Shown here piece by piece: positions 6,765-53,196 of a stretch of 64,000 nucleotides of DNA; the first letter of the stretch is position 1, and each line of letters opens with the position of its first letter. The position numbers and the translations under genes are program-made. The stretch lies in NCBI GenBank assembly GCA_000004985.1, contig GG738892.1; one strand, written 5' to 3'. The notes beneath the pieces were generated by a model. That model was given only the letters and a program-made list of their open reading frames with translations, did not search any database and was not told the DNA's origin. The DNA comes from Naegleria gruberi. Its lineage: Eukaryota.

Positions 6765-8195
6765 TTAAAATTTAACTTTATGGAAATTCATGAAAAACGA
6801 GTATTGGTTGAACATTTCTTTGCCAGCAATATTATGAATCAAACATTTACCAATTATTTGATTTAGTGCAACATAGCCTGTTGTTACATGAATGTTTGAA
6901 TCAATTAATCTATATCCAATAATTGGATGAACCGAAGAGAGACACTTTTTGATGTTGGTGAAATATACTCTTTGCTCTTTAACCTCAACAAATTGACCAA
7001 CAAGTAAGGAACCATCCTTTGCCTTAAATAAAATAAATTCTTTGTTTTGTACAATTGGAATCCATTTCTTGTTTTCAGATTGATTTCTTACCCAAGGATA
7101 ATTGATGTTAATTTGTTTTTGAAGTTTTTCAAAATTCGCTCCTCGTTGTTCTAAATTTTTGTGATTGGAAGAGTCATTAAATTGTTTGAAAACTTTGTGT
7201 TTCAATTCAAAAAGCAATGCCCAGAAGAACCTGGCATTTCCCCACTTCAAACAATCTTCAAAAATATGAGAATTCCAATGAAAATTAGGATTTGTAAAAT
7301 TACCATTACCATATAGGGAAATGACTTGTTTCCTGAAATTGAAATGTTTCAATTTTGCAATTTCAATATTTGAAGGTGAAACCAAATCTTGAATCAAAGA
7401 AAGTACGTATTCTACGTGATTTGACCAACATATTATATGTTTCTTCTTCAAACTGAATGAAACATCACAGTGATTCTTATTATTAATAAGAAAATCATAC
7501 ATAATTGGGCAACTAAAAACCACGAATTCCAAAAAATGATCTGCTGAACAATCATTGTAATCTTTTGCAATCATTTTCAAAGGTTTACCATGATTGTTTG
7601 TATACTTGTCCATAACAGACTGAAAATCACTTAAAATGTTGGTGTAATTGAAATATTTGAAAAATTTTTTAAGGTGTCTCCTTAAATCACCTTGAATAGA
7701 ACCATGCATTAATTCAACAGTTGAATTTTCAAAAATATCACAATCCTTAATTTGTAAAAACGGACACTTCATTTGAGTATTGTTACTTTGTCGAACTTTT
7801 TCTTTTACCTGTTTGGATTTTTTGGACTTGGAATCAATCTGCATATCTTTGATTTGAATATCAGCGACTGTAATAAACTTGTAGCCATTACATGAGGTAC
7901 CAATTGATAATTTTTGTTGCATTTCAATTGCTTCAGTAACAGTTCTTAAAGGATAGACTAAAGGTGTTGAAATGTCATTAGGACATTTACAATAATCTCC
8001 TTTTGGGCATTTACATTTAGAACATGTATAGCTTTCAAGAAATAATGATAGCCATCTTTGTACAGAATCCCAAATCCAAGGACCTATTAGAATTCGAATC
8101 TTTTCAATTGAATCAGTGTAAGAGTTATAANNNNNNNNNNNNNNNNNNNNNNNNNNNNNNNNNNNNNNNNNNNNNNNNNNATTATTATTTTCCAC
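6765..8195 (-). CDS. Hypothetical Cys-rich protein; the N-terminal region is interrupted by a 50-N assembly gap
   Basis: 476-aa ORF containing a CSKCKCPKGDYCKCP cysteine cluster. I recognise no domain. The run of X residues near the N-terminus corresponds to the N-run at 8131..8180. Confidence 0.5.
   Translation of the reverse strand: MENNNXXXXXXXXXXXXXXXXXYNSYTDSIEKIRILIGPWIWDSVQRWLSLFLESYTCSKCKCPKGDYCKCPNDISTPLVYPLRTVTEAIEMQQKLSIGTSCNGYKFITVADIQIKDMQIDSKSKKSKQVKEKVRQSNNTQMKCPFLQIKDCDIFENSTVELMHGSIQGDLRRHLKKFFKYFNYTNILSDFQSVMDKYTNNHGKPLKMIAKDYNDCSADHFLEFVVFSCPIMYDFLINNKNHCDVSFSLKKKHIICWSNHVEYVLSLIQDLVSPSNIEIAKLKHFNFRKQVISLYGNGNFTNPNFHWNSHIFEDCLKWGNARFFWALLFELKHKVFKQFNDSSNHKNLEQRGANFEKLQKQININYPWVRNQSENKKWIPIVQNKEFILFKAKDGSLLVGQFVEVKEQRVYFTNIKKCLSSVHPIIGYRLIDSNIHVTTGYVALNQIIGKCLIHNIAGKEMFNQYSFFMNFHKVKF
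8131..8180. other. Assembly gap (50 N)
   Basis: Run of n characters in the sequence. Confidence 0.99.
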
Positions 8196-14337: not shown

Positions 14338-15171
14338 TTAATAACTCATTTCATCTGGTTGAGGACCCTCTTCTTCATCTGTATCATTGTAATAAGAATA
14401 ATAAGGAATATATTCACTGATAACATCGTTCACATTCGATTCTGCCTCTGTAAATTCCATTTCATCCATTCCTTCAGCTAAATACCAATTTACAAATGCT
14501 TTTCTTCTAAACAACTTTGAGAACTCCTCTGAAGTGAATTTCAAGTAGTTACTCATAGCACTTGAACTAGCCAGGAGAGAGCCACTTCTTTTGAATCCTT
14601 GTTGAGCAACTTTGCAATAGGAAGATTGAAAGTTATTTGGAATCCATTCATGAAAGTACGAGCTTTGATAAATACATGTTCTAAATAGTTCGTTTTCGGC
14701 ATTGGAGGTAGTAAAGTCTCCTCTAAAGGTGGCTGAACAAGTGTAATATCGTCCCTCTTTGGGATTGAGTGAGGCCAAAAAGTGCGAAGGAACCAACAAT
14801 TGGCGTACAATGTCTGTAAGTTGAATGTCAGTGTTATCCATCCCCTTAATTTGTTTTCCAAGAGGTGCCATTGAAGACACTAAAAAGTGAATACGAGGGA
14901 ATGGTATCATGTTAGTTGCCAGCTTTCTCATATCATTATTGACGAACCCATTAAATCTGAACGAGCAAGTTTCAGCACATAGCGACTGAGCAATAACCTT
15001 ATTCACATCTTCTAGATTTGCTTTTTCTAATTCAATCTTATTTCTACAAATATTATACACAGCTTCATTATCATAAAATTTCACATAATCAACAAATTCT
15101 ACAAGGTTTTGCAATTGTAGTATTGAGTTGTATGGTGCCAGCACTCCGTCTGACACGTTCTNNNNNNNNNN
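14338..15171 (-). CDS. Divergent beta-tubulin-like protein; the 5' part is lost in an assembly gap
   Basis: The C-terminal two-thirds of a tubulin is present. [17 protein letters not shown] matches beta-tubulin [27 protein letters not shown] matches SYFVEWIPNN, and [34 protein letters not shown] matches [34 protein letters not shown]. Several other blocks are strongly diverged. The N-terminus runs into the N-run. Confidence 0.75.
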   Translation of the reverse strand, partial: [277 protein letters not shown]

Positions 15172-15624
15172 NNNNNNNNNNNNNNNNNNNNNNNNNNNNN
15201 NNNNNNNNNNNNNNNNNNNNNNNNNNNNNNNNNNNNNNNNNNNNNNNNNNNNNNNNNNNNNNNNNNNNNNNNNNNNNNNNNNNNNNNNNNNNNNNNNNNN
15301 NNNNNNNNNNNNNNNNNNNNNNNNNNNNNNNNNNNNNNNNNNNNNNNNNNNNNNNNNNNNNNNNNNNNNNNNNNNNNNNNNNNNNNNNNNNNNNNNNNNN
15401 NNNNNNNNNNNNNNNNNNNNNNNNNNNNNNNNNNNNNNNNNNNNNNNNNNNNNNNNNNNNNNNNNNNNNNNNNNNNNNNNNNNNNNNNNNNNNNNNNNNN
15501 NNNNNNNNNNNNNNNNNNNNNNNNNNNNNNNNNNNNNNNNNNNNNNNNNNNNNNNNNNNNNNNNNNNNNNNNNNNNNNNNNNNNNNNNNNNNNNNNNNNN
15601 NNNNNNNNNNNNNNNNNNNNNNNN
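15172..15624. other. Assembly gap (453 N)
   Basis: Run of n characters. It removes the 5' end of the tubulin gene and the 3' end of the upstream membrane-protein gene. Confidence 0.99.
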
Positions 15625-16757
15625 TTCTGGCATAGTTCAGAGCTCTGATTGCAGGAATAGTTGTCAAAATTATTACTTGACTCATGGCATAAAAGGAAAG
15701 AATTACTGGAATAGGAATAATATAATCCACCAATTGATTCAAAATGTCAATGCGAGGAAGTGCAAAACTGAGTATGACACAAATTAACATTAAGGTTGTC
15801 GTAACTGATGCTTCCAATTTGATTCCCCAAGTGTCCTTTTCCCTAATAATTACCAATATTAAACAACAAAGAGTAATAATTCCATAAAGGCAATAGAATG
15901 CAATGTACAGAGGAACTGTATTTGGTTTGGTTAAACAACCAGTTCCGAATTGTTTCCATCCGAAACTTGGATAATTATGAGTAAAAGACTCTGGACCCAA
16001 AACCTCAATCATTCCAAGCACCAACCAAATAATTGAATGAAGAGAGAATAAACCAATTTGAACGATCAACAAGAACTTATTACTTAGAAGAAACTTGTAC
16101 ATAATCAAGAGTTTCTTCTGATAGTTACTAAATTGCACTTTCAATGATTGAGAACTGTCATCTTTTTCTTGAGAGATGATATCATTCACAACTTTCTGAA
16201 CTTGTGACCTGTTATTAGAAACATCACCAACTGCTTCTGGAAAACTTGATTTCATAGTTAATAATTGAAATAATCGACCTCGTATCACAAATGAAAAGCA
16301 AGCATACCTTAAAATTATTATTTCTAAAAAAGGGAACGAGAAAAACTACATACATGGCTGGAAGTGGCATAGCCCAACACAAATTGAACGCCACAAATGA
16401 AAATAATCCACAAGGAAAGATATCGCGTCCTATAATCCATCTTAGACACGGTATTAAAACATGTACAGTCCCAGCCATAATATTCGACAAAATCCAAAGC
16501 ATTCCTCTCGAATGAATATGTCCACTCTTTCGTTTCAGAAAGACAACAATCAAAGTAAAGCATAATATTGGAAGAAAGAAAAGCAACATAATAGAAGAAA
16601 ATATAGGAACAATAATGGTATCTGGACATGCTAACATCATCTTGTCTGCTGACGACGACGATAATGAGTTATTGAGCAGTAGAAGAGTATTGACACCTCT
16701 AAAGGGTATCCCTAATTCAAATAATAGAGGATTACAGGGTAAAGAAGATGTATTCAT
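15625..16757 (-). CDS. Multi-pass transmembrane protein, possibly two exons (16757..~16300 and ~16288..15625); C-terminus lost in the gap
   Basis: Both parts consist of several hydrophobic helices: ...IVPIFSSIMLLFFLPILCFTLIVVFL... and ...LLIVQIGLFSLHSIIWLVLGM...YIAFYCLYGIITLCCLILVII.... No family recognised. The X-containing ORFs 15089..16288, 15018..15635 and 15128..15787 are artefacts of translating the N-run. Confidence 0.35.
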
Positions 16758-44766: not shown

Positions 44767-45254
44767 TTACTCATTGGAAGGATTGGATCCGTTTTGAGGT
44801 GTTGATGAAGGTGGCATGTTTGACATCATTGAAGATGAAGATGATCTAGTTTGTACTAATTCGTTGGCTAAACTGTCAGAATAATATTCAGGCTTTTGAA
44901 TGTTAATTCCGTAATCTTTCAATGAATGATATAAATCCTCAGTGGCCAAAACATAACGTGGTTCCTTTCCTTGTTGTTTGGCTGTTCTTCTAGCACAAAA
45001 TCCGTGGGATTCCTTGCAAATTTCGGCCAAGAATTTATGTGCAGAGAGGGAAACTAATCGGAGCACTCTCTTGTCTGTTGTTTTAAATCCTGATTGTTGA
45101 AGATAATATGAAATTATTTGATCCGGAATCTGTTATACAAATGATCCACATTCCAATTAATTTTTAATCATTATGCTAATATACATACAGCTGGATTATA
45201 GTCTTCCATAGAATCCAAAAACTCTTGCATATCCTTGTATTTTTGATCCGACAT
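44767..45254 (-). CDS. TAF10: TFIID subunit TAF10, two exons approx. join(45189..45254,44767..45129) on the minus strand
   Basis: Exon 1 is MSDQKYKDMQEFLDSMEDYNPA, then a GTATGT donor. Exon 2 is IPDQIISYYLQQSGFKTTDKRVLRLVSLSAHKFLAEICKESHGFC...RYVLATEDLYHSLKDYGINIQKPEYY. This matches the TAF10 histone-fold region (EDYTPTIPDAVTGYYL...IRLISLAAQKFISDI...YTLTMEDLTPALSEYGINVKKPHYF). Confidence 0.75.
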
Positions 45255-45412
45255 TTTTTTCACTTTTATTTTTAAAATCATTGCAAGTTATCACCATCAT
45301 TCTTTTGCATTATTCAATTAAACAAAATAATCCTGTTTTGCTACTGACGTCTTAATGCTTGTTTTTGAAATTTTTACTCGGAAGTGTTTTATAAATTTAT
45401 ATTTTATTAGGT

Positions 45413-45790
45413 TTAGATGTTTGATGGGAAAAGGAAAACTCTAACTGGTTGAGCAAGAGCAGTAGTTGGCAATTGAGGAGCGAATTTAGCTCTAACAACA
45501 CCAGAGTTACCGTGAGCTCTAGTAATCTTACCCCAGACAACTCTCAAACCCTTGAATGTGTTTGAACCAGAGGTCAATGACTTTTCACCCTTGTAGAGAT
45601 AAGCAACTCTCTTACCAATGTAGAATTGAGCAGCTTCCTTGGTGGAGACACCTTCGAGTTGGAGGAGGGAGGTGTTTTCGTATTGTCTAACCTTTGATCT
45701 CTTGTAACCCAAGACACGTCCTCTAACCCAGAGTCTGCTTTCCTTAACCTTTCCTTGGAAGGTAACTCTCTTGCTTGTGGTGGTGACCAT
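45413..45790 (-). CDS. RPL35A: 60S ribosomal protein L35a (eL33)
   Basis: Single exon: MVTTTSKR...[30 protein letters not shown]...[10 protein letters not shown]...[20 protein letters not shown]. Confidence 0.9.
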
Positions 45791-46148
45791 TCTCTGTTAA
45801 TGTAAAAGTTTATGTTGAAAATATTTGTTTGGTGATGAAAATCCTTTGGTAAGAAAAATGAAGTATGTTGACTACGTACGAATTTTGCTATTTTTTTTTC
45901 GAAACAATTTCCTAGTTGTTTGGGAGGTATTGTATTTTACAATGAAAAAATGAGCCTGGTAAAAGCCAACAAGCAAAGCACCGTCATAAAAAAATTCTTC
46001 GCAGTCTAATAAACACACAACCCAGTTTTTCAACACATATTTGTGATTATTATTGGGAGTTTATTCTCTCTTGGATTGTATTATACATTATTGTCTTCTA
46101 TTTTACAAGTTTATTTTTCTGATGGTGGTGCCTCTTTTCGAAAAGCAT

Positions 46149-46457
46149 CTACTGCTCGCTATTCTCTTCAAGATCATCAGATGAAGGAATAATCTTACGC
46201 ATATCGGATGCTATCTTCATCTTTTCCTCTAAATTATACATGGCCTGTAAGAGCATGGAACTCTTCAATTCTCTCATCAACAATTGTTGTTCGTCTTCAT
46301 TGTGAAGGGAGTTCTTGTCCTTTCTAAATTTCTCTTGAATCTTTTCGTACTTGGCAATCTCCTTATCTATAATTTCAGCAGCAACATCCATGTTTTGCTC
46401 ACTCTTATAATCTAAACCCTTTCCTTCCAACAACCATTTTACTTTATCAGATGGCAA
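46149..46457 (-). CDS. Hypothetical small coiled-coil protein; 5' exon not located
   Basis: The ORF has no ATG. A strong ttttacag acceptor sits just upstream of LLPSDKVKWLLEGKGLDYKS..., so at least one upstream exon is missing from my model. Confidence 0.3.
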   Translation of the reverse strand: MPSDKVKWLLEGKGLDYKSEQNMDVAAEIIDKEIAKYEKIQEKFRKDKNSLHNEDEQQLLMRELKSSMLLQAMYNLEEKMKIASDMRKIIPSSDDLEENSEQ

Positions 46458-46680
46458 TAATTCTGTAAAACCCCTAATATTATTATTTCCAAAAGATATT
46501 ACAAGAAAGTCAAGATCCGATATTCCACATTCAACAATTAATATTTACCATAATAACGTTCAAAACAACATCATTGACTAAGAACCTTACTATAAGTCTA
46601 ACCTACATTTTTTTAATTCCTTAAACTTTAAACATTTTTCGAGAGAAGCAAACTTGGCGCCAATTTCAAATTCAAAAAAA

Positions 46681-49600
46681 ATGAAAAGAAGAATAATCCA
46701 AGACGAAGATGATGAAATGATGAATAGTGTGAATATCAAAGATGAATCGAGTAATGATTCCAATGGAAATGTTGCATCACAATTTCGGAGATTGTCAATA
46801 CATAATGTGATGAATGAAACTCTTCTTCCTCTTCCTTCCGATATCGATACACCCATCCTATCCGAAAAGGAGAAGAAGAAACAATATAACAACTTGATCC
46901 GTACAGCAAGAGATTTGGAAAAGAAAGGGGAAGATCCAGTTAAATTCATTCACATGTTCGAACAGGCCTATTCTCTCTTCAGTGTTGATGATAAATTATC
47001 AAAAAAAATTGAAAAATATAAGAGATTATTGGCAGAAAGGATTTTTCTAGAACAGACTCAAATGTTACAAACTGAAACTAATCAAAATATTGTAAAGAAT
47101 GAACCAATTAGGACCTCGTTTGCAACCAATTCTTCAATCAACTTGCAAATTAAAGAGGAAAAGCTCATTCTTCCAACAACTCCAAAAAGTTCAAGAGAAA
47201 TTCCAGCCAGCTCTATAATATCACCCTTCATGTCTCCTCAATCTGAAAAAACAAAACGATTTGAAAAGCTTCCTAATGGATTCATTTATGATAAGAAGGC
47301 TGATATTTATATTCTCATGGATGCCAAATCAAAACAAGATAGAAAGATACCATTTAAACTCTCCTCAAAAATTTATAATCAACTTTATGACTATCAAAAG
47401 GAAGGCCTCTTATGGTATTGGGGAAAACATATCAGTATTCGAAATGATATTTCAGGAGGAATATTGGCTGATGATATGGTAAGTTTTTCAAATTTCACAT
47501 ATTCTATAACACAACATTTTCAATTTAACTTTATAGGGTCTTGGAAAAACAGCAACAACAATTTCATTCCTGTCTGGACTCTTCTCTGGTGATAGTGTTA
47601 AACATGTTCTAATTGCAATGCCTGTGAGTTTAGTAGAAAATTGGAGAAAGGAATTTAATGTTTGGAGTGAAGGAGATTTTAATATTTTCATTTTCCACTC
47701 ACTTACCAAGAAACAACGTACTGATATTTTGGATCAATATAAGCAGGAGGGTGGTGTACTACTAACAACGTACGGTACTATATCATCTCAGATAGATTTA
47801 TTCACAGATAGTTATGTGAAGGATGGATATCAGTTTGATTATATTATTCTGGACGAAGGTCACAAGTTGAAAAACCCAAGCACCCTTTTATCTAAATGCT
47901 TACACAAACTCCCAAGCACCATGTGTAGAATTGTTATTAGTGGTACACCTGTCCAAAATAACTTGATGGAAATGCATGCATTAATGGATTGGATATTTAA
48001 GGGAACATTATTAGGAGATAGAAAAACATTTAAGGATGAGTTTGAAAAGAAGATTGTCAGAGCCAATGAAAAGGATGCCACTAGTTTCGAACAAAAGTTA
48101 GGCGCTGAGATTTTGAGACGTTTCAGAGAAGTCATTAGCCCACACATGTTGAGAAGAGAAAAATCACAAGTTCTGCAGCGTATTCAACCTGCTGACGCAA
48201 ACAACTTGAGAAAATCCATTGGAGGATCGTTACAAAAGAAAATTAGTAAGAAGAACGATTTGGTAATTTGGATCAAGTCCACTAATTATCAATTGGAGCT
48301 CTACAGAGAATTTCTTAAAAGTGAGGATGTGCATGAGGTTATTCACGAATCTACCTCTCCTCTTGCAGGTAAGTTACTATTTCAAATTAATTCAATTTAC
48401 AACAATCCAAGCCATTACAATTTTGAAGCAAATATGTTGCCATCCTGATCTGCTCCCAAAAGTACAAAAGAAATCTAAAAATATCAAGGAAATGATTGCC
48501 ATGAGTGGTAAAATGATTTTCCTTCGAAAACTGGTTCAACAACTTTATGAAGAGGATGAAAAATGTTTAATATTCAGTCAAAGTTCAAAAATGTTAGACA
48601 TGATAGCCTCAATGCTCAAATACATTAATATTTCCTACACGAGAATAGATGGTACTATTAACGATACTAAAGAAAGACAGAGAAGAGTTGACTCATTTAA
48701 TAGTGAAAATTCACCATATTTTTGTTTCTTATTGACCTCTCAAACAGGAAGTGTAGGGCTTACTTTGACAGCTGCCACTAGAGTTATTTTGTTTGATCCG
48801 TCATGGAATCCAACTCAAGGTAAGTTTTATTTCATATAACAAAACTAGACAATATTTTAGATAACCAAGGTATGTAAAGTGAATGATACTTATGTAAATT
48901 AATAATTTCTAGCTGCTGACAGATGTTACAGAATTGGCCAACTGAAGGATGTTGTTGTATATAGACTTATTTCATGCTCTACTATTGAGGAGAAAGTATA
49001 TAGAAAGCAAGTTTTTAAAGATGCCATCTTTAGATCTACCACAGAAAAGGAAAACCAATATAGGTACTTTACAAAATCAGAGTTAAAAGAACTATTCTCT
49101 TTGCCTCAGAACCCTAATGCATCTGAAACACAATTACAACTCGAAAATATTCATACACCATCTCCCAATCATCATAGTGAGAAACTGAAACAACATTTGG
49201 AAACGATCAAAAACTTGGCAAAGGATGTAATGACAGGATTCAGCAATCATGATCTTCTCTACTCAAAGGAAGCTGATGACTATGAAGATGGAACAGCCGA
49301 TAATGAAAGAGAAATATCAATGCTTGCTGACAATTCAGCAAGAGCTTTGAACTATCCTTCTCATATGACTGATTCTCCACAAAATAAGAAAAAATCAACT
49401 AAAACCAAGACAAAAACATCACAAAAATCAACAGATGCAGAGTGGAAAGTTGCTGGTGATGCACCACCTCCTTCAGAATTTCTTTTGACCTCCCTTTCTG
49501 ACATACAGAAGGATAAGAGTATCAACGAGGAAGCATTCCTCACTCAAATCAACACAACAAATCTATCAAACGAGAATTGTAAACAAATGATAAAAGGGGT

Positions 49601-50712
49601 GAGGACTCACGGTGAAACAGGATTTTGGAAGAGAATATTGGATAACTTTTTACCGAAGTCTTTACTTACACAAAATCAATTGGAAAATGAGTGGAAGAAT
49701 TTCAAGATGGGAAAGACTATTGAGCATTTGAATCAAATACTTACACATTTTGATCATGAGTTTACTGTAAAACCAGAAATGCCAAAGATTAGATCTCAAG
49801 TGGCTCTAGTGGGTAATAATCCTTCTCAACTTCCTCCAAAAGTCAACTCTAAGGCAGAGGTTCCATCCTTTAAAAATCCAGCAAAAAAGACACTGATAAA
49901 ACCACCACCAAAAGATCCTAAAACACCAATTAGAAAAGAGGATAGAGAGCCAGAATTGAGTCCATCAGATGATGATAATGATGACATGATGATGAGCCCA
50001 CCAGCCATCCTCTCTCCAGATATTCTTCCAAAGAGAAAATCCTTAGTTGCAGATCCAGATAAGTTCAGAAGAAGACTTTCTTCCATCTTTGGCTTGATCA
50101 ATGAAGATGAAGATGATTTTGAACCATCTGATAAGGAAGAGGAAGAAATTATGGACTCGTCAAGAAAATGAAAATGAAAAAACCACACAAGTTAAGGATG
50201 AGTTTCCAATTGTTGGGAAGAGCACTTTCATCGATGATGCTGCTGATACAGAGGAAGATGACGGAGATTATGAACCATCTGATGAAGAGGAAATTGATTC
50301 AGATGATGATTTTATTGACGATGACGATACCATCTATGATGACGAAGAGGATGACCCAATGCAAATGACACCAATGACACCAAAGCCAAAATTCAATAAG
50401 GTAATTGATGATGACGAAGATTATGGAATGGAAACACAGAGTGCAGGTGGAAATAACAGAGATGACATGCTCTTCTCTCCAATGTTAGAAACACCAATGA
50501 CTCCAGAGGCTTCCAATGCCAATATGATAACAACAAGTGAAGATAAGTCTGCACACTATCTCAGTATGCTTCGTCAGGCAAGAGCTGTTGAGTTGAGTGG
50601 TGATATTTTGAAAGCTATCAATCTTTATATGAATGCATTGGAAATCGATGATAGCGACATTAATCTGCATTGCAAGATTAATCATTTAGCTAAAGCACTT
50701 TCATTCGAATAA
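46681..50712 (+). CDS. SNF2-family DNA translocase with N- and C-terminal TPR-like regions (PICH/ERCC6L-like or ERCC6/Rad26-like), at least four exons; the C-terminal part is in a different frame
   Basis: Exon 1 runs 46681..47478 and contains an N-terminal TPR-like helix (NLIRTARDLEKKGEDPVKFIHMFEQAYSLF) and DYQKEGLLWYW...GGILADDM, then a GTAAGT donor. Exon 2 runs 47537..48368: GLGKTATTISF...ILDEGHKLKN (DEGH box)...SPLAG. Exon 3 runs ~48412..48819 after a ~43-bp intron: AITILKQICCHPDLL...helicase-C (FLLTSQTGSVGLTLTAATRVILFDPSWNPTQ). Exon 4 starts ~48912: AADRCYRIGQ...to a stop at 50171. The +1 frame (ORF 50101..50712) continues with an acidic DYEPSDEEE repeat and a TPR-like LSMLRQARAVELSGDILKAINLYMNALEIDD. 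Confidence 0.7.
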
Positions 50713-50739
50713 ATGTCATGAAGAAAAACATTGAAAAGT

Positions 50740-53196
50740 TTAATCCGAGAGATCTGCATCTTCAATTTCACCTTCAGAGAACAGTACTGTGAAGGCATCT
50801 TGAGGTACTGAAACAGAACCGAGTTGTTTCATCTTCTTCTTACCTTCCTTTTGCTTTTCTAACAATTTACGTTTTCTGGTAATATCACCACCATAACACT
50901 TGGCTGTGACGTTCTTTCTGAAAGCTTTCAACTTTTCACTAGCAATAATCTTCAATCCTACAGCACATTGAATGTTAACTTCGAAGAGTTGTCTGGAAAT
51001 GAGCTTCTTCAATCGTTGGACAACATCTCTTGCTTTAAAGTATGCCTTACTTTCGTGTACAATGTACGACAAGGCATCAACAGGATCCTTATTGAGCATG
51101 ACAGTCAATTTTACAACGTCAGATCTTTCAAATCCAGCTTCCTCGTAATCTAAGGTGGCATAACCCTTGGTCATGGATTTCAATTTGTCAAAAAAGTCCT
51201 GAAAGTGTTGTTAGATCTATTTTCAAATAATTATGAAATACTTACATAAATCATTTCGTTGAGTGGAATCTTGTATTGCATGGAAACTCTTTCAGCAGAG
51301 AAGTATTCCATATGAATTTGGACACCTCTTCTTTCCTGACACAAGGTAATAATATCACCAACAAACTCTCTTGGAGTCATAATTGTACAGTTAGCCATAG
51401 GTTCATAAACTTCAGCTTCTGGATTTTCTGGGAAATCATTAGGGTTATCGATATATTCAATGATTTCATCTTCTACAGTATTAAAAGATGTCTTCTTTCC
51501 AGTATTCTTTGTTACAATCTTGTAAGTAACTGTTGGAGCAGTGATAATTGTTTCAATGGTAAATTCTTGGGCTAATCTTTGCTTAAATACGTCCATGCTA
51601 TTGAGGTTTAGAAAAAAAGAGAAATTTGGGTTTAAAACTTACTGAAGCAATCCCAAGAATCCACATCTGAATCCAGTTCCTAGAGCAGCACTAGTTTCTT
51701 TTTCAATAGTGACGCTTCTGTCTGTCAAGAGTAACTTGTCAATGACATCTCTCAACTTATCAAATTCAGCAGTATTCAGAGGATAAATACCAGCATAAAC
51801 CATAGGTTTGGCTTGCTTAAAACCAGGTAATGGTTCAATCTTTGAATCCCAAATATAGAGGGTGTCACCAATCTGGGCTTCCTTTGTACTCTTCATTCCA
51901 CAAATGAGATAACCAACTTGACCTTGATATAATTTATCAGTTGGAACTTGGTCAGGATTCATGATACCCAACTTGGTAACTTGATATTTGGTTGGTTTTG
52001 CAGAGTTTTTAACATTTGCATGTGAGTAAATGAAATCACCAACCTCAACAGAACCTTGGGCAATATAAACAAGTGAAACAACTCCAAAATATTCATCATA
52101 CCATGAATCGAAAATCAAAGATTTTAAGGCCCCAGGAGTTTCTCCTTCACTAACTTTTGGTGGTTCAGGTGCTGGAATTTTCTCAATAACTGCAGGAATA
52201 ATCTTTTGACAATTCAAACCAGTTTTAGCACTCACTTTGATAATTTCATCTTTTTCTACGCCCAAAATTCCAGTCATATCTTCTTCTACAAGCTCAGGTT
52301 GAGCTGTTTGTTGGTCAATCTTAGTCATAATTGGAATAATTTCAAGATTTTCTTCCAATGCCAAGAAATAATTGGCCAATGTTTGAGCTTGGACGCCTTG
52401 TCCAGAGTCAACAAGTAATAAAGCACCATCACAAGCACCCATACTTCTACTGACTTCATAACTAAAGTCAACGTGTCCCTATATAAATTTGAATTTCAAA
52501 ATTCCACACATTTCCATTATTTCTTCAACTACTTACTGGTGTATCAATCAAATTTAATAAATATTTCTTTCCATTATATTCGTAAAACATTGCACATGAT
52601 TGTGCCTTCACAGTAATACCTCTTTCTCTCTCAACTTGTAATCTATCGAGAAATTGTGCATTATCCTTCAAAAGTTCAGCAGTAATTGTATTAGTTTCCT
52701 TCAGTAAATAATCAGCCAATGTACTTTTTCCGTGGTCAATGTGTGCAATGATACAAAAATTACGAATATATTCAGGAGTGAATCCCGATAAATCCAAAGC
52801 AGATTTGTTATGTTCCTTGATCTTTTTAGCATTGGTTGGAAGGACAGAATAATTTCTAACTTGTTGTTGTTTACTAAATCCAATATTTCTCATCCAAACA
52901 TTACTATAGATATTATTTCTATTCATGATGGAAAGTCTCTTCAATTCCTCTTTTAATTCCGAGCATTCAAAAACCAATCCATTCTTGTTACTTTTGCTCA
53001 CATAATTTCTCCTATTATTTTCATTATCATTGGACAAGGAGGATGACAACATTTTGATACTATTTCCATTATGATGATGACTATGACTATGATTCAAATG
53101 GCATTGATGATGAAGAAGCGAATTCAAGCTCTCCGAACAAGTGCTGCTGCTAAAACTCGTCGTCCTATTCGGAAGGAAGAATAATCGATATTGCAT
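50740..53196 (-). CDS. GUF1: Translation factor GUF1 (mitochondrial LepA/EF4 GTPase), four exons approx. 52537..53196, 51643..52478, 51246..51597, 50740..51198 (minus strand)
   Basis: Exon 1 has an N-terminal presequence-like region, then G1 [20 protein letters not shown]...RGITVKAQ...LIDTP, then a GTAAGT donor. Exon 2 is [24 protein letters not shown]...[10 protein letters not shown]. Exon 3 is [28 protein letters not shown].... Exon 4 is [19 protein letters not shown]...[37 protein letters not shown], the LepA C-terminal domain. Introns are 45-58 bp. Confidence 0.85.

What the first reader, a model, noticed from the sequence alone, without database searches (positions are those of the whole stretch)
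46681..50712. Helicase gene whose TPR-bearing C-terminus lies in a shifted frame (PICH/ERCC6L-like architecture)
The SNF2 translocase (DEGH box, helicase-C, AADRCYRIGQ) has an N-terminal TPR-like helix pair. The +1-frame ORF overlapping its stop (50101..50712) encodes an acidic repeat (DYEPSDEEE, echoing DDFEPSDKEEEE in the main frame) followed by a TPR-like segment (LSMLRQARAVELSGDILKAINLYMNALEID). TPR, then SNF2, then TPR is the architecture of PICH/ERCC6L, so the two frames very likely belong to one protein. The frame change falls at a gaaaatgaaaatgaaaaaacc homopolymer run near 50165-50195, which suggests a 1-bp assembly indel. A second possible frame discontinuity lies between the predicted acceptor (~48911) and 49100, which I could not resolve by eye.
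Basis: partly seen in the sequence, partly recalled or inferred. Interest (0 to 1): 0.5.

Follow-up and report, generated by a model that had tools for sequence, protein, structure and literature searches.

The report
Frame-split PICH-type helicase gene, Naegleria
This is the Naegleria gruberi copy of the mitotic DNA translocase PICH/ERCC6L; one extra base in the draft genome puts its last 180 amino acids, including the C-terminal TPR, out of frame, so the public protein record is truncated, which is an ordinary sequence or allele defect rather than new biology.

Summary
The window is Naegleria gruberi NEG-M, a Sanger draft. The gene is NAEGRDRAFT_71679 (XP_002673181.1, 1101 aa), and my five-exon model reproduces that record exactly. 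The main frame stops at TGA 50169-50171, and the +1 frame stays open for 180 more codons to TAA 50710-50712.

Orthologues from Willaertia, N. lovaniensis, Acrasis and an unnamed run all end with the motif encoded in that +1 frame. The Willaertia tail aligns collinearly across the break. It matches frame +3 up to 50168 and frame +1 from 50158.

Profiles built only from animal PICH sequences find the N-terminal TPR in exon 1 and the C-terminal TPR at the end of the +1 ORF. The PICH family domain is also present. So this is one PICH/ERCC6L orthologue split by a single-nucleotide frame error within 50158-50171.

No intron fits. A programmed +1 frameshift has no support.

I could not determine whether the extra base is a consensus error or a real allele, because no independent sequence covers the site.

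Side finding: heterolobosean PICH orthologues carry a TRF1-type Myb domain that the animal sequences compared here lack.

The parts
46681..47478 (+). Exon 1: start codon, acidic N-terminus, N-terminal TPR, start of the SNF2 ATPase (ends ...ILADDM|GLGKT)
   Evidence: The spliced translation equals public protein P0127 / XP_002673181.1 exactly.
46870..47037 (+). N-terminal TPR-like helix pair (aa 64-119)
   Evidence: A profile of 87 animal PICH N-termini hits here, E 2.4e-7 among 1765 six-frame ORFs. It aligns with animal PICH N-TPRs.
47479..47536 (+). Intron 1 (58 nt, GTAAGT..TAG)
47537..48368 (+). Exon 2: SNF2 N-lobe including the DEGH box
   Evidence: Pfam SNF2-rel_dom covers aa 238-557, 1.1e-55.
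48369..48411 (+). Intron 2 (43 nt, GTAAGT..AAG)
   Evidence: It restores ...SPLA|AITILKQICCHPDLL, as in the orthologues.
48412..48819 (+). Exon 3: Helicase_C lobe
   Evidence: Pfam Helicase_C covers aa 580-691, 4.8e-24.
48861..48869 (+). 9-nt microexon ATAACCAAG, supplying D-N-Q in NPTQ-DNQ-AADRCYRIGQ, flanked by introns 48820-48860 (41 nt) and 48870-48912 (43 nt)
   Evidence: DNQ/DSQ is conserved in the orthologues. The microexon is already in the public model.
48913..50171 (+). Exon 5, main-frame part: end of the ATPase, PFD, Myb domain, basic and acidic tail, ending in TGA 50169-50171
   Evidence: Continuous frame. tblastn of the Willaertia tail gives a frame +3 match over 49458-50168.
48999..49280 (+). 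PICH family domain (PFD), aa 712-805, including GFSNHDLLY
   Evidence: 42% identity over 92 aa with bat PICH residues 597-683, E 4e-21.
49569..49712 (+). TRF1-type (telobox-like) Myb domain core, aa 902-949, within a roughly 90-aa helical module (49470-49799)
   Evidence: - Profile A1 against PDB sequences: human TRF1 Myb, E 4e-6.
- AF2 model pLDDT 82.
- Library hits beyond the PICH-like proteins are Myb and TRF proteins.
50158..50171 (+). Frame-break interval: ..tcg tca aga aaa TGA, with A4 run 50165-50168. The reading continues in the +1 frame as caa gaa aat gaa aat gaa aaa acc
   Evidence: The frame +3 match ends at 50168 and the frame +1 match begins at 50158, with abutting query residues 238 and 237. 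Conserved EEEEI(M/L)xxxRK lies upstream and DEFPI(V/Y) downstream.
50170..50712 (+). Exon 5, +1-frame part: acidic tail and C-terminal TPR, true stop TAA 50710-50712 (about 180 aa missing from the public protein)
   Evidence: No differences from an independent N. gruberi-like metagenome contig over 50232-50712.
50539..50703 (+). C-terminal TPR-like helix pair (YLSMLRQARAVELSGDILKAINLYMNALEIDDSDINLHCKINHLAKAL) at the extreme C-terminus
   Evidence: A profile of 61 animal PICH C-termini hits only here, E 3e-6. The same motif ends P0001, P0002, P0006 and P0007. Pfam TPR_11 matches only weakly, 0.0064.
50121..50132 (+). First copy of the GAACCATCTGAT (E-P-S-D) repeat, in main-frame codon phase. 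The second copy lies at 50272-50283 in shifted-frame codon phase

Best explanation
Positions 46681-50712 hold one gene, the Naegleria gruberi orthologue of the SNF2 DNA translocase PICH/ERCC6L. Its domain order is N-terminal TPR, SNF2 ATPase, PICH family domain, a lineage-specific TRF1-type Myb domain, an acidic tail, then a C-terminal TPR.

In this assembled sequence a single extra nucleotide within 50158-50171 throws the last 180 codons into the +1 frame. The most economical reading is one extra A in the A4 run 50165-50168. The public model NAEGRDRAFT_71679 therefore stops at TGA 50169-50171 and lacks the C-terminal TPR.

The extra base is either a consensus error of the Sanger draft or a variant carried by one haplotype of this heterozygous diploid. 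In both cases the organism would still make the full-length protein of about 1281 aa.

Shown: the gene structure, its identity with the public record, the collinear frame switch, and orthology and domain content. Inferred: that the cause is a one-base insertion, that an intact copy exists, and that the protein acts as a PICH-like dsDNA translocase in mitosis.
For: 1. Identity. The spliced model equals XP_002673181.1.
2. Orthologues. N. lovaniensis, Willaertia, Acrasis and a Logan protein all end in the TPR motif that N. gruberi encodes in the +1 frame. In Willaertia DNA the whole tail is one frame.
3. Collinearity. tblastn of the Willaertia tail matches frame +3 over 49458-50168 (query 17-238) and frame +1 over 50158-50706 (query 237-418), with no query residues missing.
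4. No intron fits. The only frame-restoring GT..AG candidates use poor donors and delete the conserved DEFPI(V/Y) motif.
5. The tail is still coding. It has 180 open codons (chance about 6e-7). An animal-only C-TPR profile hits it at E 3e-6. The EPSD repeat sits in phase with each frame. There are no differences from a second strain over 481 nt.
6. The rest of the gene is under purifying selection. All 4 exonic SNPs against the second strain are synonymous.
7. The sequence is a draft. The window contains N-run gaps, and NEG-M was sequenced by Sanger and is treated as a heterozygous diploid (PMC9928731).
8. With the stop at 50712 the gene ends 27 nt from the convergent GUF1 gene. With the stop at 50171 a 568-nt gap would be left.
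Against: No independent read, contig or transcript covering 50158-50171 could be obtained, so the extra base is inferred and not observed.

About 5.1 kb of independent N. gruberi-like contigs (L003, L004) show no single-base indel disagreement with the window. The local consensus error rate is therefore not high.

Homopolymer miscounts are not a typical Sanger error, and A4 is a short run.

A fixed, recent truncating mutation in the long-cultured axenic strain NEG-M would look identical in this sequence.
Confidence: 0.8

Rival explanations
1. Genuine, fixed truncation. Strain NEG-M carries the 1-nt insertion on all copies and makes an 1101-aa PICH that lacks the acidic tail and the C-terminal TPR. 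The downstream ORF is a very recent relic.
For: The sequence as assembled reads this way, and the public model follows it. No homopolymer disagreements appear in 5.1 kb of independent contigs. NEG-M is an old axenic laboratory strain (my own knowledge).
Against: The relic shows no second lesion in 180 codons and keeps a conserved TPR. The tail is conserved across Heterolobosea, animals, Dictyostelia and Thecamonas, so its loss should be costly. Neither point excludes a very recent event.
Confidence: 0.13
2. Programmed +1 ribosomal frameshift at AAA-UGA-A. With Lys-tRNA in the P site and the UGA stop in the A site, the ribosome skips the U and continues with GAA, giving ..SSRK-ENEK... This would resemble Euplotes AAA-UAA shifting or antizyme UCC-UGA shifting.
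For: The site has the formal shape of known +1 sites: a shift-prone AAA followed by a stop, with an open and conserved +1 frame. The comparison with Euplotes and antizyme rests on my own knowledge.
Against: The shift is not conserved. Willaertia and N. lovaniensis read straight through the equivalent position. The downstream RNA has no structure beyond shuffled controls (z 0.21). No other ORF in the window shows an unexplained long +1 extension of this kind. Searches linking Naegleria with PICH or ERCC6L found no paper, and I know of none reporting frameshifting in Naegleria.
Confidence: 0.03
3. An unconventional or very short intron, or other mRNA-level correction such as transcriptional slippage, removes or adds bases at the junction.
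For: The gene has four short introns (41-58 nt) and even a 9-nt microexon.
Against: The interval between conserved residues is about 35 nt, shorter than any intron in this gene. No GT..AG pair of length 3n+1 preserves DEFPIV. The orthologue alignment is collinear with nothing missing. An A4 run is too short for known polymerase slippage (my own knowledge).
Confidence: 0.02
4. Two genes: the helicase really ends at 50171, and 50101-50712 is an independent small TPR protein with its own ATG.
For: An ATG exists at 50101.
Against: The first 20 codons of that ORF are the unconserved alternate frame of the acidic tail. All orthologues carry the tail fused to the helicase. An internal promoter would be required. 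No such separate protein appears in any database searched.
Confidence: 0.01

Closest known systems
PICH / ERCC6L (Plk1-interacting checkpoint helicase, animals)
   Same: The order is the same: N-terminal TPR, SNF2 ATPase with HELICc, PICH family domain, a long low-complexity region, and a TPR at the extreme C-terminus (architecture as in PMC8565832). The best named hits are animal ERCC6L at 40-43% identity and about 470-507 bits over the ATPase. The PFD is 42% identical. Animal-only profiles recognise both TPRs.
   Different: The Naegleria protein carries a TRF1-type Myb domain between the PFD and the tail that the animal, dictyostelid and Thecamonas sequences compared here lack. The tail is far more acidic. 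Conservation of the PLK1 docking site, SUMO-interacting motifs and BEND3, BLM or RIF1 partners was not examined. In this assembly the C-terminal 180 aa are out of frame.
ERCC6 / CSB / Rad26 (transcription-coupled repair translocase)
   Same: It is the closest SNF2 subfamily with solved structures, at 286 bits over aa 204-755.
   Different: It scores much lower than ERCC6L (about 500 bits). It gives no match to the TPR regions or to the distal part of the PFD.
Stop-codon-directed +1 programmed frameshifts (Euplotes AAA-UAA/UAG, antizyme UCC-UGA, bacterial RF2 CUU-UGA)
   Same: The local sequence AAA-UGA with an open, conserved +1 frame has the same formal layout (family features from my own knowledge).
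   Different: The shift is not conserved in relatives. No stimulatory structure is present. No regulatory rationale is apparent. A one-base sequence defect explains it more simply.
TRF1/TRF2/Tbf1/plant TRF-like telobox Myb domains
   Different: The third-helix motif reads LENEWKNFK where TRF1 has LKDRWRTMK (alignment). The first Myb tryptophan is absent, as far as the first-helix sequence NENCKQM shows. DNA binding and sequence specificity are untested. It sits inside a SNF2 translocase and not in a shelterin-type protein.

Membership tests
PICH / ERCC6L | SNF2-type ATPase with both RecA-like lobes (GxGKT, DEGH, helicase C, ..DRxxRIGQ) | tested here: met
   Pfam SNF2-rel_dom 1.1e-55 and Helicase_C 4.8e-24. 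The motifs GLGKT, DEGH and AADRCYRIGQ are read directly from the sequence.
PICH / ERCC6L | Closer to ERCC6L than to other SNF2 subfamilies | tested here: met
   Outside Heterolobosea and plant CHR24, the top named hits are animal 'ERCC-6-like' proteins at 470-507 bits. The best PDB relative, ERCC6/CSB, scores only 286 bits. This is a one-directional test. No phylogeny was made.
PICH / ERCC6L | PICH family domain directly after the helicase C lobe, described as specific to PICH orthologues (PMC8565832) | tested here: met
   aa 712-805 are 42% identical over 92 aa to bat PICH 597-683, including G(I/F)S(D/N)HDLLY, E 4e-21.
PICH / ERCC6L | N-terminal TPR | tested here: met
   An animal-only profile hits 46870-47037 at E 2.4e-7.
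PICH / ERCC6L | C-terminal TPR at the end of the same polypeptide | tested here: inconclusive
   The motif is present and specific: an animal-only profile gives E 3e-6 at 50539-50703. It is encoded in the +1 frame relative to the ATPase in this assembly. It is contiguous in Willaertia.
PICH / ERCC6L | dsDNA translocase activity, binding to ultrafine anaphase bridges, PLK1 docking | not testable with these tools
   These are biochemical and cell-biological properties. No PLK1-site analysis was attempted.
Programmed +1 ribosomal frameshift | Shift-prone P-site codon followed by a stop or slowly decoded codon, with an open +1 frame | tested here: met
   AGA AAA UGA A, with a +1 frame open for 180 codons.
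Programmed +1 ribosomal frameshift | Conservation of the shift site and two-frame arrangement in related species | tested here: not met
   Willaertia and N. lovaniensis read through the homologous position in one frame.
Programmed +1 ribosomal frameshift | Stimulatory element (RNA structure or similar) | tested here: not met
   The 120 nt downstream fold no better than shuffles, z 0.21. Not every +1 site needs such an element.
Programmed +1 ribosomal frameshift | Trans-frame protein product observed | not testable with these tools
   No N. gruberi transcript or proteome data could be reached. Exact look-ups suggest no N. gruberi RNA-seq in the collection.
Myb / telobox (TRF-type) DNA-binding domain | Three-helix Myb fold with sequence similarity to TRF Myb domains | tested here: met
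   [not shown]
Myb / telobox (TRF-type) DNA-binding domain | Sequence-specific binding to telomeric repeat DNA | not testable with these tools
   The third-helix motif differs from TRF1 (LENEWKNFK against LKDRWRTMK). A 2013 survey stated that no information was available on N. gruberi telomeres (PMC3622300).

The most novel reading that the evidence does not exclude
The A4 run is correct on every haplotype, and N. gruberi makes full-length PICH through a stop-codon-directed +1 ribosomal frameshift at AAA-UGA-A. That would be the first programmed frameshift reported in a heterolobosean, and it would use the same P-site codon as Euplotes shifting. A separate and much more likely novelty is that heterolobosean PICH has acquired a TRF1-type Myb domain, which hints at sequence-directed recruitment of the translocase.
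Probability: 0.03. Interest if true: 0.7.

Novelty: new member of a known kind. Interest (0 to 1): 0.22.

Why it matters
**For databases.** XP_002673181.1 / D2VRR6 should be flagged as C-terminally truncated. It lacks about 180 aa, including one of the two TPRs that define PICH. Comparative studies that use the N. gruberi proteome would wrongly score the C-terminal TPR as absent.

**For biology.** The full PICH architecture (N-TPR, SNF2, PFD, C-TPR) is present in Heterolobosea as well as in animals, Dictyostelia and Thecamonas. The machinery that in animals handles ultrafine anaphase bridges is therefore probably very old.

**The Myb insertion.** The TRF1-type Myb domain inside the heterolobosean proteins is a testable lead on how the translocase might be targeted to particular repeats. 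It is a modest finding.

**The frame break.** The break itself is most likely an ordinary sequence or allele defect.

Tried and rejected
**Introns.** I enumerated every GT..AG pair of length 3n+1 that bridges the stop. The donors are GTTGCA, GTTCAG and GTCAAG, none like the GTAAGT/GTATGT used in this gene. Every candidate deletes conserved residues. Rejected.

**Independent sequence for the shift site.** None was found.
- Exact-product look-ups of 203-, 199-, 147- and 121-aa ORFs.
- Twenty further candidate products, covering frameshifted forms and repaired A3, K and KN variants, full-length and truncated at a contig end.
- Two DNA pattern scans of JGI metagenomes.

**N. gruberi-like contigs that were found.** They come from ENA metagenome ERZ929261 / run ERR1078381. 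L003 covers 44878-48845. L004 and L005 cover 50232-51400 and 50231-51225. All stop short of 50158-50171.

**RNA-seq.** The highly expressed RPL35a protein is on record only on that one contig. N. gruberi RNA-seq therefore seems absent from the collection.

**Homology searches.** The search with the tail alone returned nothing at E <= 1e-3. It is acidic, low-complexity and only about 50 aa of it is conserved. The homology tool did not list near-identical N. gruberi entries such as P0125-P0127.

**Other negative results.**
- RNA folding downstream of the stop showed no signal.
- Literature searches for the locus tag and for Naegleria with PICH or ERCC6L found nothing.

I did not model the full-length protein.
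Full report
**What the window is.** The sequence is AT-rich (about 33% GC) and gene-dense, with short GT..AG introns. Exact look-ups identify it as Naegleria gruberi. The downstream convergent gene is GUF1, NAEGRDRAFT_71680. The gene under study is NAEGRDRAFT_71679 (XP_002673181.1 / EFC40437.1 / D2VRR6), annotated 'predicted protein', 1101 aa, on a 342-kb scaffold. The NEG-M genome was sequenced by Sanger, and Naegleria is regarded as a heterozygous diploid (PMC9928731). The window contains two N-run scaffold gaps, so it is draft sequence.

**Gene model.** The model is exon 1 at 46681-47478, exon 2 at 47537-48368, exon 3 at 48412-48819, a 9-nt microexon at 48861-48869, and exon 5 from 48913. 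Introns are 58, 43, 41 and 43 nt, with GTAAGT or GTATGT donors. The microexon supplies D-N-Q in NPTQ-DNQ-AADRCYRIGQ, which is conserved in relatives. Translating this model to the TGA at 50169-50171 gives 1101 aa, identical to the public protein.

The frame is continuous from 48913 to 50171. It probably arose because ORF tables start at the first TTG (49101).

**The frame break.** Past the TGA, the +1 frame stays open for 180 codons to TAA 50710-50712. At the local base composition the chance of that is about 6e-7.

The orthologues found are N. lovaniensis P0001 (56% identity), Willaertia magna P0002 (52%), Acrasis kona P0007 and a Logan protein, P0006. All end with the motif that N. gruberi encodes at the end of the +1 ORF: Y..L...A...E..GD.L.AI..YM.AL...D.D..LHCKI..L...L.F. 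In Willaertia DNA the whole tail lies in one frame.

tblastn of the Willaertia tail against the window gives two collinear matches:
- frame +3 over 49458-50168, query residues 17-238, ending ...EEEEIMDSSRK;
- frame +1 over 50158-50706, query residues 237-418.

No query residue is skipped and the window coordinates overlap by 11 nt. The change is therefore a +1 shift confined to 50158-50171: tcg tca aga aaa TGA, read in the other frame as caa gaa aat gaa aat gaa aaa acc.

The 12-mer GAACCATCTGAT (E-P-S-D) occurs at 50121 in main-frame phase and at 50272 in shifted-frame phase.

**What causes the break.** Four causes were considered.

*An intron.* None fits. Every GT..AG pair of length 3n+1 spanning the stop has a poor donor and removes the conserved DEFPI(V/Y) motif. 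The interval between conserved residues is shorter than any intron in the gene.

*A programmed +1 frameshift.* It is formally possible, since AAA-UGA-A resembles Euplotes or antizyme sites (from my own knowledge). It lacks support for three reasons:
- the arrangement is not conserved in Willaertia or N. lovaniensis;
- the downstream RNA folds no better than shuffles (z 0.21);
- nothing comparable appears elsewhere in the window.

*A single extra nucleotide in the assembled sequence.* This is what remains. It is most simply A4 in place of A3 at 50165-50168, which would give ...IMDSSRNENEKTTQVKDEFPIV... and a 1281-aa protein.

*Error or real allele.* I could not decide between these. N. gruberi-like contigs from ENA metagenome ERZ929261 / run ERR1078381 cover 44878-48845 (99.3% identity) and 50232-51400 (99.8%). 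None covers the site. Thirty-odd exact-product look-ups and two metagenome DNA scans found nothing more.

Those contigs do show three things:
- there are no single-base indel disagreements in about 5.1 kb;
- all four exonic SNPs in the helicase part are synonymous;
- there are no differences in the 481 nt of the tail ORF that they cover.

The tail is thus intact and conserved, which argues against an old truncation. I put about 0.8 on 'one gene, one-base insertion that is an error or a single-haplotype variant, full-length protein still made'. A consensus error and a heterozygous allele are roughly equally likely within that. I put about 0.13 on a genuine fixed truncation in NEG-M, and a few percent in total on recoding, splicing or two genes.

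**Family assignment.** PICH is defined by a SNF2 ATPase with HELICc, an N-terminal and a C-terminal TPR, and a PICH family domain specific to its orthologues (PMC8565832). All four features were tested.
- ATPase: Pfam finds SNF2-rel_dom (1.1e-55) and Helicase_C (4.8e-24).
- Subfamily: outside Heterolobosea and plant CHR24, the best named hits are animal 'ERCC-6-like' proteins at about 470-507 bits. The best solved relative, ERCC6/CSB, reaches only 286 bits.
- PFD: aa 712-805 are 42% identical over 92 aa to bat PICH 597-683, including the GxSxHDLLY signature.
- TPRs: profiles built only from animal PICH termini, searched against all 1765 six-frame ORFs of the window, hit exon 1 at 46870-47037 (E 2.4e-7). 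They hit the end of the +1 ORF uniquely at 50539-50703 (E 3e-6; next best 0.29).

Function as a mitotic dsDNA translocase is inferred from orthology only. No paper in the library links Naegleria with PICH or ERCC6L.

**An unexpected domain.** Between the PFD and the acidic tail, the N. gruberi, N. lovaniensis, Willaertia and P0006 proteins share a helical module of about 90 aa (49470-49799). It is absent from Acrasis and from the animal, plant, dictyostelid and Thecamonas sequences in hand. Pfam does not detect it. The evidence that it is a TRF1-type Myb domain is:
- a four-sequence profile matches the human TRF1 Myb domain at E 4e-6 against PDB sequences;
- Foldseek alone was not significant;
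- in 1.84 billion representative proteins only 40 match at E <= 1e-3. Of the ten scanned, two were SNF2/Helicase_C fragments and five were Myb proteins, one of which also has a TRF homology domain.

The third-helix motif (LENEWKNFK) differs from that of TRF1 (LKDRWRTMK), so DNA specificity is unknown. A 2013 survey stated that no information was available on N. gruberi telomeres (PMC3622300).

**Verdict.** The second discontinuity is an artefact of reading ORFs by eye.

The result is useful as an annotation correction. It adds a heterolobosean member, with a Myb-bearing variant architecture, to the PICH family. It is not a surprising biological mechanism.

Noticed in passing
[not shown]
   Followed up: yes
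window 48861-48869: A 9-nt microexon (ATAACCAAG, D-N-Q of the conserved SNF2 motif) sits between introns of 41 and 43 nt. The public gene model already includes it.
   Followed up: yes
L001 14353-14402 (N. lovaniensis GCA_003324165.2, PacBio assembly): The N. lovaniensis orthologue also changes frame in its tail, at a different place. The annotation bridges the change with an atypical 50-nt 'intron' (GTGGAG..CCATAG) of coding-like composition, while the other four introns use GTAAGT or GTATGT. In the other frame the 'intron' encodes DDSMIMSPPPP, a third copy of a DDxMxxSP motif seen elsewhere in these tails. It is probably an assembly indel covered over by the gene predictor.
   Followed up: partly
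window 8131-8180 and 15162-15624: Two runs of N (50 and 463 nt) mark scaffold gaps. The second interrupts a tubulin-like gene on the minus strand (14338-15633).
   Followed up: partly
L003 (= window 44878-48845), L004 (= 50232-51400), L005 (= 50231-51225): An ENA 'metagenome' (ERZ929261 / ERR1078381, PRJEB11402) contains a strain 99.3-99.8% identical to N. gruberi NEG-M. Differences are SNPs (all four exonic ones in the helicase gene are synonymous) and multi-base intergenic indels. Logan contig L005 still carries Illumina adapter sequence at both ends.
   Followed up: partly
window 50712-50740: The corrected stop of the helicase gene (50710-50712) lies only 27 nt from the stop of the convergent GUF1 gene (50740, minus strand). 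Their 3' UTRs must overlap.
   Followed up: no
window 49980-50010 and 50460-50500: A short motif DD(x)M(M/L)(M/F)SP recurs in the tail, once in the main frame (DDMMMSPPAILSP) and once in the shifted frame (DDMLFSPMLETPMTP). Counterparts occur in N. lovaniensis and Willaertia. These may be proline-directed phosphorylation sites. This was not analysed.
   Followed up: no
tool behaviour: The large homology search did not list near-identical N. gruberi entries (P0125-P0127), although exact look-up shows they are in the collection. Absence of self-hits from that tool is therefore not evidence of absence.
   Followed up: partly
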